IMG/VR virus record: IMGVR_UViG_3300037991_005043
Coordinates: 24,349-88,348 of that record
Length of the DNA: 64,000 nucleotides
Reading direction: 5' to 3' (one strand)
DNA from: a virus
Lineage: Duplodnaviria; Caudoviricetes
Within the stretch, counting starts at the first letter, position 1. Each line of letters begins with the position of its first letter. The position numbers were made by a program, and so were the translations under genes. Below are positions 32,138-44,654 of this stretch, piece after piece. The notes under the pieces were generated by a model. It did not search any database. It was not told where the DNA came from and saw only the letters and a program-made list of their open reading frames with translations.

Positions 32138-32288
32138 CTAATAACAACTCCTCAAACTTTTTATCTTTATTCAACTTAGTAATTAATTCAAGAATCAATA
32201 CGGATAATTTATCATGAGAAGGTAGAGATTCTGCTAAATTGTATAATTTTCCCGCTAAATAGTAGTAATCATTCCTCTTCATCATCAT
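32040..32288 (-). CDS. Hypothetical protein
   Basis: Co-oriented; its 3' end overlaps the ligase 5' end by about 100 nt. Confidence 0.45.
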   Translation of the reverse strand: MMMKRNDYYYLAGKLYNLAESLPSHDKLSVLILELITKLNKDKKFEELLLDDVQKDVSSLRSDREVKSTKDKDSPKANLFGF

Positions 32289-32613
32289 CTAACTCCTTAA
32301 TTAGTCTAAGGTAATTAACAGTCATTTGATTAATTATTTCAACTTCCTCTGTCTTACCTCGCTCTAGGAATCTATGCATCATGTGTATGAATGTTGCTTG
32401 AGTAATGGCTGGTGCAAACCTAGCCATAGAATTGTCAAAGTGTATATGCCAGTATGCTACAAAAGAAGCCCTAGCAAAATAATTACCATATCTAACCTCG
32501 TTAGCATTATAGACAAAGGTATTCTTTGCATCTCCTTTCAATTTATTGCTAGTTTCATTTACCCACTTAGCGAATCTCTTATCGTTGTTTGCTATCAAAT
32601 ATGCTTTTTTCAT
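32269..32613 (-). CDS. Hypothetical protein
   Basis: GGAGAG RBS; co-oriented. Confidence 0.55.
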   Translation of the reverse strand: MKKAYLIANNDKRFAKWVNETSNKLKGDAKNTFVYNANEVRYGNYFARASFVAYWHIHFDNSMARFAPAITQATFIHMMHRFLERGKTEEVEIINQMTVNYLRLIKELDDDEEE

Positions 32614-36155: not shown

Positions 36156-36286
36156 TCTTCTTCACCATTAGTTAAATTAATTAAATGAGAACAAAGTGGG
36201 CAACATAATTTATTATTATGTTGTGTCATAAATCTCATAGTGTATTTAGCACCACAAATTTCACACTTTGTTCCCTTAGCAATCAT
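36152..36286 (-). CDS. 44-aa zinc-finger micro-protein
   Basis: MIAKGTKCEICGAK...LCCPLCSHL. Confidence 0.5.
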   Translation of the reverse strand: MIAKGTKCEICGAKYTMRFMTQHNNKLCCPLCSHLINLTNGEEE

Positions 36287-36513
36287 TCCTTATCCACCAC
36301 ACATAGTATCATATTGTATGGAACAAAGATATAATCACTATAAGTCTGATATTCAGGTCTGCTACTAAACATAATAGTTTTACCTTCTAGTGATTTATCT
36401 TTTTCACAAGAGATAACTTTACCACTATGTTGTAATCTAGTAAAAATACCGCTATCCTTTCTAACCTTTCTTAGTTCTACAACTGCGTGTTCTCCTACTG
36501 CCTTCAATTTCAT
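36283..36513 (-). CDS. groES: Co-chaperonin GroES-like protein
   Basis: 'MKLKAVGEHAVVE...SGIF...GKVIS...GKTIMF...YIFVPYNMILCVV' follows the Cpn10 pattern. Near groEL. Confidence 0.7.
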   Translation of the reverse strand: MKLKAVGEHAVVELRKVRKDSGIFTRLQHSGKVISCEKDKSLEGKTIMFSSRPEYQTYSDYIFVPYNMILCVVDKE

Positions 36514-36517
36514 ACTA

Positions 36518-37084
36518 TCATTCCTCTTCTCTTTCTAATTGATTAATATTTAAACCTGCTATGGATAATGCATTACCCCATAATTGAGTTCTAACTACTT
36601 CTAGGTTATTCCAAATCTCTAATTTATCAGGTTCATCTTTACACCAAAATCCGTAGTGTTCTTCTCCGCCTAAAACATAAGCGCATTCTAAAACAGATTT
36701 CCACTTCGCAACAGTATTAATATCAGTTCCGCTAAAATATGCACTACCAAAAGGATGAGTATGAACCCAACACTTTAGAGGTAATTTCATTCCACCATCT
36801 AACTGCTCAAATCTTTTGAAATCTACAAAGCCACCTGTTCCAGTAGAAACAAATATATTATTGTTGGAATCAATAGCATATTGCATTTCTAGGTGTGGTA
36901 GTATTTCTGTAGAAGCATACCATAATGCCTTCATAATCTCCATGTTATGTTCCAAATATTCTACATCTTCTATCTTAGTAGCAAGTGAATTTCTAAAAGC
37001 ATCCTCTAATAGATTAGCCCATGTGTTCTCTACATGGAAAATCGCTTCTTCTCTCAATAATTGCATTTCTTTTGTTTTACTCAT
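36518..37084 (-). CDS. JAB/MPN+ (JAMM) metalloprotease
   Basis: Exact HxHx7Sx2D motif 'HTHPFGSAYFSGTD', with an upstream Glu in 'LEMQY'. Confidence 0.9.
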   Translation of the reverse strand: MSKTKEMQLLREEAIFHVENTWANLLEDAFRNSLATKIEDVEYLEHNMEIMKALWYASTEILPHLEMQYAIDSNNNIFVSTGTGGFVDFKRFEQLDGGMKLPLKCWVHTHPFGSAYFSGTDINTVAKWKSVLECAYVLGGEEHYGFWCKDEPDKLEIWNNLEVVRTQLWGNALSIAGLNINQLEREEE

Positions 37085-37370
37085 CTTCTTTCATCTCCTT
37101 TATCCTTTCTTCATCTATTTCTTTTTGCGCTCTTTTTAGGGAATGCGCCATCTTTAACATTAAACCTATCTTTTCAAAAAGATAAGATGATGTTTTTTCA
37201 TATCCTACGATATGTTGTATTGAATTTACTAATGGAGTAAGTGTTATTCTTGTAGCAGAAACATAACTATCACAAGTATTACAAACCCTAGAAAATTTAA
37301 AGGGTGTAGGGCTACAACCTACTCCATCCATTTCTTTTTCACATATACAGCAGACATTTTTATCACTCAT
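37077..37370 (-). CDS. Zinc-finger protein between the E1 and JAB genes
   Basis: 'CCIC...VCNTC' plus a helical C-terminus. Confidence 0.55.
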   Translation of the reverse strand: MSDKNVCCICEKEMDGVGCSPTPFKFSRVCNTCDSYVSATRITLTPLVNSIQHIVGYEKTSSYLFEKIGLMLKMAHSLKRAQKEIDEERIKEMKEDE

Positions 37371-37936
37371 AGGCTCACCATCTTAAAATCTTCAACTTCA
37401 TTTTCTCCAAAATATCTTTGAATCCATTGTGCGCCCAAACCTGCTACTACTGCTTGCATAAATTGGACTCCTTCTTTATCTCCAACCCATGAATCTCCTT
37501 GACAACTAAATGTTCTAGTGTCATCTCCAATTAACATTTCTTCTAATTCTACACCTGTAACTTTAGAAGATAATAACATGCAGTTTCTACCTTGTGCTCT
37601 CAAATCAAGCCAATCTACGCCTGTTCTGTAAAGCATTTTTCTTAGTTGTAAATTATCTACGCAGGCAACAACCAAATCATATCCTAACACTTGTTGTTCT
37701 GTTAAGATAGCATAAGGACTAGAAGTAACAACACTATTGTATTTCTCTCCCATTGTCTTAGCCTTATTATTACCTACATCAATTACATCATAATTTTGAT
37801 AGAGTAAATTCTTAGTTTCTATAATATCGGGGTCTGCTACCGTAATATCATACAATTCAACTCTATCAATAAGTGGAATTAGATAACTACCAATTCCACC
37901 TGCTCCTATTACTAATACTGTTTTTCTTCCTGTCAT
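37367..37936 (-). CDS. ThiF/MoeB/E1-family Ubl-activating enzyme
   Basis: 'VIGAGGIGS', 'DPDIIETKNL', 'GNNKA', 'CVDN..LR', candidate catalytic Cys in 'FSCQG'. Confidence 0.88.
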   Translation of the reverse strand: MTGRKTVLVIGAGGIGSYLIPLIDRVELYDITVADPDIIETKNLLYQNYDVIDVGNNKAKTMGEKYNSVVTSSPYAILTEQQVLGYDLVVACVDNLQLRKMLYRTGVDWLDLRAQGRNCMLLSSKVTGVELEEMLIGDDTRTFSCQGDSWVGDKEGVQFMQAVVAGLGAQWIQRYFGENEVEDFKMVSL

Positions 37937-38000: not shown

Positions 38001-38804
38001 TCATTTTAATTCACCAACTGTTTTATTTATTATATCCGACTTTTGAATTCCTAGTGTATCGAGAATCTTATTCATCTCGGCTCTAATAGCGTTAGTCGAA
38101 AAACCGCTACTCTTTGCTATTTTATTTGCGCTGATGTCAATATTATACATTAGACACGCAACTCTAATAACGGCAGGAACATAGCACCTACCTCTATTGA
38201 AATGTGTGCTACTCAATCTATTAGTAAGCATCACATTTACTTGTTTAATATTATTTAGAATATCTCTACTAGAAGTTAAACCATTACAAGTTCTTTCTAT
38301 TAAATAGTCATCACTAGGAATACATTTTAGAATTTTCATACCATAGTGATTTTTTATTTTTCTAAGCAATTTGTTTGTCTGTTTCAAGTTAATGAAGAAT
38401 TCATTACAAATTACCTTAGTAGTTACTGGGGTTCTATTTTCAAACAGAACATAAGCCACTACTGCTACAGATTTAACTTCTATACTTTCTTTAGTCATTA
38501 TTCTTTTTTGAAAGAGTTCGTGATAAACCTCACTAACACGCTCATTCAGCGAGGGAAATCCGAACTTGCCTAAATATACCCCACACATCCTTAGACCCTT
38601 TAGAATCGCTTTATTCGACTCTTTTAGGTCAGTGCTAGTAGTCTTGTTAGAATATACCCTATTGTTTGAATCTAAAGTAAAATTCGTTCTAGTTTCAAAC
38701 GGTTCAACTACTAGCACCAACCCACAATCGGAACAGACTAATTCACCTAATCTTTCATCAAAATAATTTGAATGACTCAAACACTCAAAACACTTCGTCT
38801 GCAT
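38001..38804 (-). CDS. tfb: Transcription factor B (TFB/TFIIB) homolog
   Basis: Zn ribbon 'CFEC...GELVCSDCGLVL', two cyclin-like repeats, and a C-terminal HTH. Confidence 0.85.
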   Translation of the reverse strand: MQTKCFECLSHSNYFDERLGELVCSDCGLVLVVEPFETRTNFTLDSNNRVYSNKTTSTDLKESNKAILKGLRMCGVYLGKFGFPSLNERVSEVYHELFQKRIMTKESIEVKSVAVVAYVLFENRTPVTTKVICNEFFINLKQTNKLLRKIKNHYGMKILKCIPSDDYLIERTCNGLTSSRDILNNIKQVNVMLTNRLSSTHFNRGRCYVPAVIRVACLMYNIDISANKIAKSSGFSTNAIRAEMNKILDTLGIQKSDIINKTVGELK

Positions 38805-38847: not shown

Positions 38848-40152
38848 CTATTCCTCTTCTCCAATAGTAGAGGCAATTAGGTCATCTATTTTTGAATCTC
38901 TTTTACCCTTATTAGCATCATAAGTATTTACAACAGTATGCACCCTTGAAACCATATACTCATCATTCATAGTAGCCAATATTCTAGTCGCTATTTGGTC
39001 GCCCATTGGTGAATTGTTATTTGTATTATCTATACAGATAGCATCGGAATATCTACCATTGCCTCTATAGATTCTAGTTTGAACTGCTTGCCTTCCTGCA
39101 TCCACCGCACTTCTAATTTTATGATTAGGGGTTAATTTCCAGTCAGCCCCAATACCTCTAACCTTAATATGATGAATGTGGCTAAATCTATCATCGGGAG
39201 TGTTGTTATTATATTCTACAAATACCTTATCACTATGTTTTTCTATTATGTCCTGTAGCATCTTAGATGCCCTAGATGACACAATATCAGAAGTTCTATT
39301 CTGCATTAAATAGTGAATCATTAGTTTTTGTTCGGCACTACTAGGCATCCTTTTCATAGTTAAGAAGAATAATTTTCTAGGTGAAATCTCAGAATAACTA
39401 TTCGTTTTACCATGTCTAAATGCATTGATAAATAATTGAAGTGCTTCAAAAGACATACTACCCCAAACACCATCAGATAATTCTATGGCACATTCTCTAT
39501 CGCCTATTCTTTTTAGATTAAGCAACACTTCCCTTTCAGTAATGTCGTTTTTATTACTATCAATATAAAAGAAACTATATGGAGTTCTATTAGTTAAAGC
39601 ATATTTAATATCTACTGGTATGTCAATAGCACTTCTAATATCCTTTCTCCAAACATCAATATTATTATTGCTATAAGTGTGGTCTGCTATTTTTAGTATA
39701 ACTGTAGTTAGCATCCCGATAAAATCCTTTGGATTGTCAAAGGCTTTACCATTTATTGAATAGATAACATTACTGTTTTTTTGAGAAGAATCAAAATCAT
39801 CAAGTATTGGTTCTTTAGTTACTTTCTCCCTATAAAATTCGATTATTAATGGTAAAGAACTATCTTCCTTTACCACGCTTGCAGACACCTTGATATACAG
39901 ATTATCTTGATTATTTTTATTATTTGGTGTAGCATTTAATATTTTTCTAATCCACCTGTCAGTAGTGTTTAGCATAGAATTATACATGGGTCTAGCACTA
40001 CCATTAGCAGGTTTTACTTCATAGTTTGAGTTTGGCTCGGTTCGAGTAATGAATTGTCCTTGAACTTCTACAGTATAACTTAAATCTAAACTACCAACAG
40101 TATTTCTTGAGTCGTCAGCAGTTAATAATGTAAATTTGGTATTATGTTTCAT
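38848..40152 (-). CDS. Protein with unknown N-terminal region and C-terminal E2/UBC-like domain
   Basis: 'VQTRIYRGNGRYSDAICIDNTNNNSP' aligns with UBC '[27 protein letters not shown]'. Asn (39058-60) and Cys (39034-36) are 8 residues apart. Confidence 0.55.
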   Translation of the reverse strand: MKHNTKFTLLTADDSRNTVGSLDLSYTVEVQGQFITRTEPNSNYEVKPANGSARPMYNSMLNTTDRWIRKILNATPNNKNNQDNLYIKVSASVVKEDSSLPLIIEFYREKVTKEPILDDFDSSQKNSNVIYSINGKAFDNPKDFIGMLTTVILKIADHTYSNNNIDVWRKDIRSAIDIPVDIKYALTNRTPYSFFYIDSNKNDITEREVLLNLKRIGDRECAIELSDGVWGSMSFEALQLFINAFRHGKTNSYSEISPRKLFFLTMKRMPSSAEQKLMIHYLMQNRTSDIVSSRASKMLQDIIEKHSDKVFVEYNNNTPDDRFSHIHHIKVRGIGADWKLTPNHKIRSAVDAGRQAVQTRIYRGNGRYSDAICIDNTNNNSPMGDQIATRILATMNDEYMVSRVHTVVNTYDANKGKRDSKIDDLIASTIGEEE

Positions 40153-40157
40153 GCTAA

Positions 40158-40322
40158 TCACATCAAATATGTATTTGAAGTATCTACATTACAAGCGTCA
40201 TGCATTTCATTCTTAATCTCCTCAGCAGTTAGGAGTTGTCCTCCACATATTCTACATCGGGTCGCTATTCTCTTTTTGTAAGCCCTGTGGCTTTCAACAT
40301 ATTCGGGGTCTTTTTCTTTCAT
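40158..40322 (-). CDS. 54-aa CxxC...HxxC zinc-finger protein
   Basis: 'RCRICGGQLL...MHDAC'. Confidence 0.55.
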   Translation of the reverse strand: MKEKDPEYVESHRAYKKRIATRCRICGGQLLTAEEIKNEMHDACNVDTSNTYLM

Positions 40323-40696: not shown

Positions 40697-40903
40697 TCAG
40701 CAGTTGCCTCCTTGCAATGCAGGAATTAGTGTTACTGATTCTACACTATCCCATTCGATTTCATTTACTGTTGCTCTACTTCTCATCTCTCCATCTACAA
40801 ATATCCAGTAGTCGGAGTGCTCTTGAATTTGCTCTAAAACACCGCTTGAATCTAGCGACATTTCCGTGTGTCCTGTTTCATTCATTATTGTTACTTGTAT
40901 CAT
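40697..40903 (-). CDS. Ubiquitin-like beta-grasp protein with C-terminal GG plus 2-residue extension
   Basis: 68 aa with beta-beta-alpha-beta-beta-beta pattern, 'WIFVDGE', and ending 'SVTLIPALQGGNC*' (codons verified at 40697-40714). Confidence 0.85.
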   Translation of the reverse strand: MIQVTIMNETGHTEMSLDSSGVLEQIQEHSDYWIFVDGEMRSRATVNEIEWDSVESVTLIPALQGGNC

Positions 40904-44019: not shown

Positions 44020-44415
44020 TTATTCTTCCTCAACCTCTATTATACTTGAGTGTAGAGAAACCCTTCTAATGAGGTCTAATCCTAAATCAAATGGATGTCC
44101 TCGATAATCAACATCAGAAATATCTTCTCCGATTTCAATACATCCAAAACTATCTGAACTTACTTCTTCTAAGTTAGACATTGCTCGATTAATGTTTCTA
44201 ATGTTGGGGTATTCATCATACCACTTTCTGCCTTCAAAAACAAACTTTAGAACTTCTACATCTTTCCAAATCGCTTCTTTGATTTCTTCATTATATCCGT
44301 CATATAGAGATACTACATAAACTGAAACATTATCAGGTTCAGCCTCTCTACACGCTTCGATTAATTCTCCATTTGAGCGTTCTGTTACAATTGTTACATC
44401 ACTGCTATATCCCAT
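44020..44415 (-). CDS. Hypothetical phage protein
   Basis: Start probably MGYSSDV, after GAGGGA. Confidence 0.55.
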   Translation of the reverse strand: MGYSSDVTIVTERSNGELIEACREAEPDNVSVYVVSLYDGYNEEIKEAIWKDVEVLKFVFEGRKWYDEYPNIRNINRAMSNLEEVSSDSFGCIEIGEDISDVDYRGHPFDLGLDLIRRVSLHSSIIEVEEE

Positions 44416-44417
44416 AA

Positions 44418-44654
44418 TTAATCCCTCGTTGCTCTTTTTTGATTCCAATATTGTAGTCTAATCATAGCATCAATTAGATTGTTATAATTAAAAGAACTTT
44501 GATTCTTTGCATATTCTTCAGTTTCATATTGGTATTTTCTTTTTGCTGATGCTAATTCGGTTTCAACCTGATTTTTGGGATATGCTTCTCTTATTCTCCC
44601 GTAGGTATTAACCAAATAGTTTAATGTTAATTCTTCTGTTGTACTGTGTTTCAT
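44418..44654 (-). CDS. Hypothetical protein
   Basis: AGGTGA RBS. Confidence 0.55.
   Translation of the reverse strand: MKHSTTEELTLNYLVNTYGRIREAYPKNQVETELASAKRKYQYETEEYAKNQSSFNYNNLIDAMIRLQYWNQKRATRD

What the first reader, a model, noticed from the sequence alone, without database searches (positions are those of the whole stretch)
38848..40152. Cryptic E2/UBC-like catalytic domain fused to a 320-aa unknown domain
Seen: the C-terminal 'AVQTRIYRGNGRYSDAICIDNTNNNSPMGDQIATRILAT' matches canonical UBC '[39 protein letters not shown]' without gaps through the Cys. The Asn-to-Cys spacing of 8 is kept, and SP follows. HP of HPN is replaced by RG. Inference: this is a highly diverged E2. Its long N-terminal region could be a built-in substrate-recognition (E3-like) module, since no RING gene is visible.
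Basis: partly seen in the sequence, partly recalled or inferred. Interest (0 to 1): 0.72.

Follow-up and report, generated by a model that had tools for sequence, protein, structure and literature searches.

The report
Divergent E2-like enzyme in magrovirus
A virus of abundant ocean archaea encodes a 434-437-residue protein whose last ~140 residues are predicted to fold like a ubiquitin-conjugating (E2) enzyme with one invariant cysteine. Its gene always sits beside the virus's own ubiquitin-like protein, activating enzyme and trimming protease, so the virus probably tags proteins itself, though no biochemistry exists yet.

Summary
The quoted stretch is at residues 359-397 of the ORF 38848-40161 (-). 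Its ungapped match to the UBC beta4-HPN-Cys core beats 5000/5000 shuffles.

Evidence for an E2-like domain:
- Cys376 is kept in 121 of 122 homologs and is the only conserved Cys; no His is conserved.
- AlphaFold models, made without templates, give residues ~288-425 the UBC topology, with Cys376 in the beta4-alpha2 loop.
- Structure searches return almost only E2/RWD/UEV chains, but at modest Z (4.4-5.3).

Evidence against or missing:
- No sequence profile links the family to UQ_con or Prok-E2.

In 69 of 69 complete loci the gene travels, same order and strand, with a 68-aa beta-grasp-like protein ending GG plus 0-3 residues, a minimal ThiF-type E1, a JAMM peptidase and a TFB-like factor.

Best reading (confidence 0.6): a new, sequence-orphan E2-like family in a virus-encoded Ubl conjugation module of magroviruses. 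A substrate-recognition role for the N-terminal region is untested. This scan reached the same reading on other magrovirus genomes. I found no paper that describes it.

The parts
38848..40161 (-). E2-like protein (E2L), 437 aa from GTG 40161 or 434 aa from ATG 40152; stop TAG 38848-38850
   Evidence: ORF. 36 homologs and 123 cluster representatives, all metagenomic or viral, none with a Pfam, PHROG, PADLOC or NCBIfam hit.
39772..40161 (-). N-terminal region, residues 1-130: poorly conserved, beta-rich with one long helix
39307..39771 (-). Middle conserved region, residues 131-285. Holds invariant N191, A225, E227, W233 and L264 and the NRTPY motif. Predicted helix, 4-5 strands, then three helices.
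   Evidence: Not folded or searched on its own. A second UBC/RWD-like domain is an untested idea.
38887..39306 (-). UBC-like domain, residues 286-425: alpha1 (291-308), beta1-4 (313-317, 329-335, 340-345, 360-367), active-site loop, alpha2-4 (386-398, 400-406, 408-417)
39034..39036 (-). Codon TGT of Cys376, the proposed thioester-accepting cysteine, in the motif G-P-[IF]-C-[IV]-D-N
   Evidence: Cys in 121/122 homologs. It is the only conserved Cys in the protein, and no His is conserved. It lies in the loop between beta4 and alpha2 in both models.
40697..40903 (-). Ubiquitin-like protein, 68 aa, ending ...QGG-NC
   Evidence: 57 distinct homologs all carry GG followed by 0-3 variable residues (alignment A3). 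One homolog gives a weak ThiS hit (E = 0.12) ending at the GG. hhalign against a ThiS/MoaD profile gives P = 0.002 with the register ending at GG. Present in 65/65 loci with enough upstream DNA.
40158..40322 (-). 54-aa C2HC zinc-knuckle ORF (C-x2-C-x13-H-x2-C) whose stop overlaps the GTG of E2L; an accessory gene
   Evidence: Present in 43 of 69 loci.
38001..38804 (-). TFB/TFIIB-like factor, 267 aa, directly downstream of E2L
   Evidence: Pfam TFIIB zinc ribbon 2.1e-07; NCBIfam TFIIB 9.2e-08. In 69/69 loci by BLAST clustering. Its start overlaps the E2L stop in most loci, median -22 nt.
37367..37936 (-). Minimal E1-like adenylating enzyme (ThiF family), 189 aa
   Evidence: Pfam ThiF 5.9e-14; NCBIfam ThiF 2e-12; E1 part of the PADLOC E1-E2 (Cap2) models 3.6e-11. 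Invariant GxGGIGS, D35, D94-N95 and S144-C145-Q146. Present in 79/79 loci with room.
37077..37370 (-). 97-aa Cys-rich small protein between E1 and JAB; an accessory gene
   Evidence: Its cluster is found in only 13 of 69 loci. No family hit.
36518..37084 (-). JAB/JAMM metallopeptidase, 188 aa, with H-x-H-x7-S-x2-D
   Evidence: Pfam Prok-JAB 4e-05. The motif HTHPFGSAYFSGTD is read directly. Present in 76/76 loci with room.

Best explanation
The C-terminal ~140 residues of this protein are a very divergent UBC-fold domain, and Cys376 is its active-site cysteine. The protein is the E2-like carrier of a conjugation module that the virus (a magrovirus-type tailed virus of Marine Group II archaea) encodes for itself. 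Proposed steps, all inferred: (1) the JAMM peptidase trims the 68-aa beta-grasp protein after its Gly-Gly; (2) the minimal ThiF-type E1 adenylates the exposed C-terminal glycine and may hold it on its invariant Cys145; (3) the Ubl passes to Cys376 of E2L as a thioester; (4) E2L transfers it to a lysine of a target, using its ~285-residue N-terminal part instead of a separate E3. The constant, often overlapping TFB-like gene suggests a target in transcription initiation. What is shown: the conservation pattern, the predicted fold and the invariable gene association. What is not shown: any chemistry, any binding, any target.
For: Fold: two template-free AF2 models (pLDDT 79.6 and 86.6) give helix, four-strand meander, loop, then three helices. 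An exhaustive search of 48,161 PDB representatives returns almost only E2, RWD and UEV chains for residues ~288-425. The second look gives 50/50 E2/RWD rows covering UbcH5 residues 2-148. Active site: Cys376 is kept in 121/122 homologs, is the only conserved Cys, has no conserved His partner and lies in the beta4-alpha2 loop. Context: exactly five gene families are present in 69/69 complete loci: Ubl, E2L, TFB, E1 and JAB, always in the same order and on the same strand. All 57 distinct Ubls end in GG plus 0-3 residues. The JAMM motif is intact. Precedent: prokaryotic E2-like families found next to E1, JAB and Ubl genes often lack the classical His but keep the Cys (PMC1779556).
Confidence: 0.6

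Rival explanations
1. E2L has a UBC/RWD-like fold but is not a thioester carrier. It is a scaffold or adaptor, for example a partner of the viral TFB-like factor or a substrate receptor. The Ubl is conjugated directly by the E1, as in archaeal sampylation.
For: RWD and UEV chains, which are non-catalytic, score as high as true E2s. The E2L and TFB genes overlap in most loci. There is no HPN motif. E2-free conjugation exists in archaea (SAMP/UbaA, my own knowledge; sampylated TBP2 in PMC4895103, listed).
Against: RWD and UEV domains lack the active-site Cys (PMC1779556). Here a lone Cys at that topological position is kept in 121/122 diverged homologs, while the surrounding loop varies in length and sequence.
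Confidence: 0.17
2. The fold call is wrong or incidental. The protein is an unrelated factor, such as a transcription or replication cofactor, and its cysteine has another role (redox, metal binding, or catalysis of another kind).
Against: The hit lists are almost pure UBC superfamily across two models and three searches, and they cover the whole E2 core. A single Cys with no conserved His or second Cys argues against a metal site or a Cys-His hydrolase. The Ubl/E1/JAB association in 69/69 loci would be unexplained.
Confidence: 0.12
3. The module is a sulfur-carrier pathway of the ThiS/MoaD/CysO/QbsE type, in which a JAB peptidase also trims a GG-X tail. Cys376 of E2L would relay sulfur rather than carry a Ubl for protein tagging.
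For: The E1 is closest to ThiF/MoeB models. The Ubl aligns weakly with ThiS/MoaD. E1 plus JAB plus a GG-extended beta-grasp protein also marks sulfur-carrier operons (PMC1779556, and my own knowledge).
Against: None of the five universal genes is a rhodanese, cysteine desulfurase, thiazole, molybdopterin or cysteine synthase, or tRNA-thiolation gene; the fifth is a TFB-like factor. A UBC-like fold has no known sulfur-relay role (my own knowledge).
Confidence: 0.08

Closest known systems
Bacterial Ubl-E1-E2-JAB operons (class 6d of Iyer, Burroughs and Aravind 2006, PMC1779556; later studied as Bil systems) and their E2-like proteins (Pfam Prok-E2_D)
   Same: Same four-part logic: a small beta-grasp protein with C-terminal Gly, a ThiF-type E1, a JAB peptidase, and a separate Cys-bearing UBC-like protein that lacks the classical His.
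   Different: No detectable sequence similarity. The element is a virus of archaea, not a bacterial defence island. E2L carries a ~285-residue N-terminal extension. A TFB-like gene is an obligate fifth member. The E1 is only 189 aa.
Canonical eukaryotic and viral E2 enzymes (UBC core, Pfam UQ_con; e.g. UbcH5/UBE2D, UBE2S, UBE2K, Ubc6, ASFV I215L)
   Same: They are the best structural matches. The predicted topology, the position of the Cys between beta4 and alpha2, and a C-[ILV]-D motif are shared.
E2/E3 hybrid enzymes with large non-UBC regions (UBE2O, BIRC6)
   Same: A UBC domain sits in a larger protein with no separate RING partner. UBE2O and BIRC6 UBC domains appear among the structural rows.
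   Different: The resemblance is in architecture only. The N-terminal region of E2L has no recognised fold or target, and its role was not tested here.
Archaeal sampylation (SAMP1-3, UbaA, HvJAMM1) and Urm1/Uba4
   Same: Archaeal setting, ThiS/MoaD-like modifier, ThiF-type E1, JAMM peptidase. A basal transcription factor (TBP2) is a known sampylation target (PMC4895103).
   Different: Those systems have no E2. Here a fourth, UBC-like, Cys-bearing protein is universally present.
CBASS Cap2/Cap3 (E2-E1 fusion plus JAB; Prok-E2_A and Prok-E2_B)
   Same: The viral E1 scores against the E1 part of the Cap2 models. A JAB partner is present.
   Different: E2L is not fused to the E1, does not match the Cap2 E2 part, and the module has its own free Ubl.

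Membership tests
Canonical UBC/E2 (Pfam UQ_con, PF00179) | Significant match to the UQ_con sequence profile | tested here: not met
   No hit for the protein, for any of 98 family members at E up to 5, or in the whole virus record at E up to 10.
Canonical UBC/E2 (Pfam UQ_con, PF00179) | UBC core fold: N-terminal helix, four-strand antiparallel meander, then three helices | tested here: met
   [not shown]
Canonical UBC/E2 (Pfam UQ_con, PF00179) | Invariant catalytic Cys in the loop between beta4 and alpha2 | tested here: met
   Cys376 is kept in 121/122 homologs and lies in that loop in both models. No residue-level superposition was available.
Canonical UBC/E2 (Pfam UQ_con, PF00179) | HPN motif about 8 residues before the Cys | tested here: not met
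   This protein reads R-G-N there. The Asn is present in only 12/122 homologs, and no His is conserved anywhere in the protein.
Canonical UBC/E2 (Pfam UQ_con, PF00179) | Forms a thioester with a Ubl received from an E1 | not testable with these tools
   This needs biochemistry.
Prokaryotic E2-like families (Pfam Prok-E2_A to E; Iyer et al. 2006) | Match to one of the Prok-E2 profiles | tested here: inconclusive
   No Pfam hit. hhalign against small Prok-E2_A, B and D alignments gives probability 0.2%, but with the same alignments A-D and B-D also fail to find each other, so the test has little power. Families C and E were not tried.
Prokaryotic E2-like families (Pfam Prok-E2_A to E; Iyer et al. 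2006) | Conserved gene neighbourhood with an E1-like gene, a JAB gene and often a Ubl gene | tested here: met
   Ubl in 65/65, E1 in 79/79 and JAB in 76/76 of loci with enough DNA, always on the same strand and in the same order. Five families are present in 69/69 loci.
Prokaryotic E2-like families (Pfam Prok-E2_A to E; Iyer et al. 2006) | Conserved Cys at the E2 position, with or without the classical His | tested here: met
   The criterion is as described in PMC1779556.
RWD/UEV (catalytically inactive UBC-like domains) | UBC-like fold that lacks the active-site Cys | tested here: not met
   The fold rows include RWD and UEV chains, but the Cys is invariant here.
Magrovirus-type virus (context of the gene) | Tailed archaeal virus with its own replication genes and a chaperonin, as described for magroviruses (PMC5434244) | tested here: met
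   Family B DNA polymerase, ATP-dependent ligase, UvrD-type helicase and a thermosome-type chaperonin are in the window. The virus record is 88,348 bp and about 95% complete. Homologs lie on 16-185 kb IMG/VR contigs. No capsid phylogeny was run.

The most novel reading that the evidence does not exclude
E2L is an E2/E3 hybrid that the virus uses, together with its own Ubl, E1 and JAMM peptidase, to tag the transcription-initiation machinery (host TFB, TBP or RNA polymerase, or its own TFB-like factor) and so take over or time transcription. This would be a ubiquitin-style host takeover encoded entirely by a virus of archaea. The obligate, translationally coupled TFB-like gene would be the functional link.
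Probability: 0.15. Interest if true: 0.85.

Novelty: new variant of a known kind. Interest (0 to 1): 0.62.

Why it matters
Ubiquitin-like conjugation with an E2 step is known in eukaryotes, in a few archaea and in bacterial anti-phage systems. Here an abundant group of ocean viruses of archaea appears to carry a whole cascade of its own, with an E2-like enzyme too diverged for any sequence profile to find. If the chemistry is confirmed, three things follow:
- A new branch is added to the UBC superfamily.
- Viruses of prokaryotes are shown to use Ubl tagging offensively or for their own regulation, not only to be targeted by it.
- The invariable TFB-like neighbour gives a concrete, testable link between Ubl tagging and archaeal transcription initiation.

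The four magrovirus and archaeal-virus papers I searched never mention ThiF, JAB or ubiquitin. Other library searches found no description either.

Tried and rejected
- **Foldseek on the whole 437-residue model.** Nothing below E = 0.03. On the domain model the best hit is E = 0.13.
- **Sequence and profile searches for known relatives.**
  - A profile search of PDB sequences found nothing.
  - Pfam on 98 members gave only scattered chance hits.
  - PHROGs, PADLOC and NCBIfam gave no hit for E2L.
  - The ESM Atlas gave no usable feature hit, and its own model is poor at pLDDT 0.39.
  - A profile search of 5.8 billion proteins with the domain alignment returned only family members, with no bridge to a named family.
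- **hhalign against Prok-E2_A, B and D alignments taken from 300 proteobacterial genomes.** No signal, but the control pairs A-D and B-D also failed, so this says little.
- **Scan of 185,579 species genomes.** Only two hits, on short contigs of bacterial MAGs. The same MAGs also hold magrovirus-type E1 genes on other contigs, so these look like mis-binned virus. I therefore could not show a cellular homolog. The scan relies on two peptide patterns and would miss distant relatives.
  - Complex prediction for E1 + Ubl + E2L domain.
  - The atlas fold library.
  - Sequencing-run look-up.
  - Drawing relatives of a virus record.
- **Rejected reading: Asn368 as a conserved HPN-type residue.** It is present in only 12/122 homologs.
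- **Rejected reading: a Cys-His hydrolase or a zinc site.** No His and no second Cys is conserved.
- **GroES-like look of the 76-aa ORF 36283-36513.** Neither Pfam nor a PDB sequence search supports it.

Full report
**What is there.** The window is part of an 88,348-bp virus record rated about 95% complete. It encodes a split family B DNA polymerase, an ATP-dependent ligase, a UvrD-type helicase and a thermosome-type chaperonin. That gene set matches the magroviruses, tailed viruses of Marine Group II archaea (PMC5434244).

**The observation.**
- The quoted peptide is residues 359-397.
The score is 41 with 9/21 identities.
- No shuffle out of 5000 reached that score (maximum 37). It is the best of 195 ORFs in the window; the next best scores 29.
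- In this protein the Asn-to-Cys spacing is 8, as stated. Ser-Pro follows one position earlier than in the canonical string.

**Conservation.**
- The protein has 36 close to moderate homologs and 123 representatives at the 50% clustering level. All come from metagenomes or viral contigs, and none carries a Pfam domain.
- In an alignment of 122 full-length members, Cys376 is present in 121 and sits in the motif G-P-[IF]-C-[IV]-D-N.
- Other near-invariant positions are Q287-N288-R289, G336, D340-W341, Q358, G387-D388-Q389, R393, N399-D400 and T409.
- Cys376 is the only conserved cysteine, and no histidine is conserved anywhere. That argues against a metal site or a Cys-His hydrolase.
It lies in a segment that takes insertions of up to about 30 residues, so it is not a family-wide HPN equivalent.
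- Residues 1-130 are the least conserved part. Residues 166-417 are the conserved core.

**Fold.**
- A template-free AlphaFold2 model of the whole protein has pLDDT 79.6. A second model of residues 258-437, built on 98 sequences, has pLDDT 86.6.
- Both give the same C-terminal layout: helix 291-308; strands 313-317, 329-335, 340-345 and 360-367; a loop holding Cys376; then helices 386-398, 400-406 and 408-417. This is the UBC topology.
The sequence register and the predicted structure therefore agree.
- Foldseek finds nothing significant. Its best hit is the Ubc6 UBC domain at E = 0.13.
- An exhaustive alignment against 48,161 PDB representatives returns almost only E2, RWD and UEV chains for this region. 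Examples are UBE2F, UBE2S, Ubc9, Ubc13, UBE2K, UBE2O, ASFV I215L, UFC1 and FANCL.
- A second look at Foldseek's top 1000 chains gives 50 of 50 E2/RWD rows. They align 110-122 residues and span residues 2-148 of UbcH5.
- I read the purity of the lists and the full-domain coverage as good evidence for a UBC-like fold. I do not read it as evidence of close kinship.

**Sequence-level membership.**
- No profile method connects the family to UQ_con or to the prokaryotic E2 families.
- I built small alignments of Prok-E2_A, B and D from proteobacterial genomes and compared them with the domain alignment by hhalign. The probability was 0.2%.
- With those same alignments, A against D and B against D also failed. 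The negative result therefore carries little weight.

**Context, which decides the matter.**
- On the same strand lie a 68-aa ORF ending QGG-NC (40697-40903), a TFB-like gene (38001-38804), a 189-aa ThiF-type E1 (37367-37936) and a JAMM peptidase with an intact H-x-H-x7-S-x2-D motif (36518-37084).
- I fetched 85 related loci and searched them with profiles built from four loci.
  - The Ubl is present in 65 of 65 loci with enough upstream DNA.
  - The E1 is present in 79 of 79 loci with room.
  - The JAB is present in 76 of 76 loci with room.
  - All are always on the same strand and in the same order.
- Unsupervised BLAST clustering of every ORF between Ubl and JAB shows exactly five families present in 69 of 69 complete loci: Ubl, E2L, TFB, E1 and JAB. 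The next most frequent family reaches only 45 of 69.
- All 57 distinct Ubls end in Gly-Gly followed by 0-3 variable residues, which is the mark of a modifier that is trimmed before activation.
- The Ubl aligns weakly with ThiS/MoaD, in the correct register up to the Gly-Gly.
- The E1 keeps the nucleotide-binding glycines and an invariant S-C-Q.

**Mechanism.** The most economical reading is a four-step cascade. The JAMM peptidase trims the Ubl. The E1 adenylates it. The Ubl is carried on Cys376 of E2L. It is then transferred to a target lysine, with the N-terminal 285 residues of E2L standing in for an E3. Every step is inferred.

- Prokaryotic E2-like proteins that lack the classical His but keep the Cys are a known pattern next to E1, JAB and Ubl genes (PMC1779556).
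- The TFB-like gene overlaps the end of E2L in most loci, median -22 nt. In this window it is separated by 43 nt that contain a TATA-like run.
- A basal transcription factor is a known target of archaeal Ubl tagging (PMC4895103). A transcription-related target is therefore a reasonable guess, but it is untested.

**Rivals.**
- E2L could be a non-catalytic UBC/RWD-like adaptor, with the E1 conjugating alone as in sampylation. The lone invariant Cys argues against this.
- The fold call could be wrong. The pure hit lists and the gene context argue against this.
- The module could be a sulfur-carrier pathway. No sulfur-using enzyme is among the universal genes.

**Novelty.** The searchable literature on magroviruses and archaeal tailed viruses never mentions ThiF, JAB or ubiquitin. 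The family is absent from Pfam, PHROGs, PADLOC and NCBIfam. Earlier notes of this scan reached the same reading on other magrovirus genomes. They also report related Ubl/E1/JAB/TFB operons in the host archaea. I confirmed the viral module independently but did not test the host claim. I class this as a new variant of a known kind: a UBC-superfamily E2-like enzyme in a Ubl-E1-E2-JAB module, in a new host setting and with new partners.

Noticed in passing
window 40158-40322 (-): A 54-aa ORF with a conserved C-x2-C-x13-H-x2-C zinc-knuckle pattern ends in ...Y-[LM]-M, and its stop overlaps the GTG of E2L (GTGA). It is present in 43 of 69 related loci. It could be a small accessory partner of E2L; it is not a RING.
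   Followed up: partly
window 38001-38804 (-) and loci L001-L085: The TFB-like gene is as universal in the module as Ubl, E1 and JAB (69/69), and its start usually overlaps the E2L stop. In this window it is instead preceded by a 43-nt spacer with ATAAATATATTATA.
   Followed up: partly
window 36518-37084, 38848-40161, 44020-44448, 32269-32613 (all -): Four proteins of the replication arm, E2L and JAB among them, end in exactly E-E-E, and each has a GGAG/GAGG-like run in its last 15 nt. Many homologs in other loci do the same. This may be a ribosome-binding site for the next gene written into the coding sequence, or an acidic C-terminal tag.
   Followed up: partly
window 39307-39771 (-), residues 131-285 of E2L: The conserved middle region is predicted as a helix, 4-5 strands and three helices, which is again a UBC/RWD-like order of elements. 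Several RWD rows in the whole-model search begin at residues 190-210. This may be a second, Cys-less UBC-like domain.
   Followed up: no
[not shown]
   Followed up: no
L086, L087, L088-L090: Two bacterial MAGs (labelled Altibacter and Maricaulis) hold E2L homologs on short contigs and magrovirus-type E1 genes (E about 1e-82 to 1e-84) on other contigs. These look like viral contigs mis-binned into bacterial genomes.
   Followed up: partly
window 37367-37936 (-): The E1 is only 189 aa, an adenylation domain with no C-terminal domain of the kind found in MoeB/ThiF or Uba-type E1s. It has an invariant S-C-Q at 144-146 that could be its catalytic cysteine.
   Followed up: partly
loci L001, L005 and 43 others, between Ubl and E2L: A ~629-aa ribonucleotide-reductase-like gene sits between Ubl and E2L in 45 of 69 loci but not in this window, where a 123-aa and a 54-aa ORF fill the gap.
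   Followed up: no
window 36283-36513 (-): The 76-aa ORF just downstream of JAB looks GroES-like by eye and lies about 1 kb from the thermosome gene. Neither Pfam nor a PDB sequence search supports this.
   Followed up: partly
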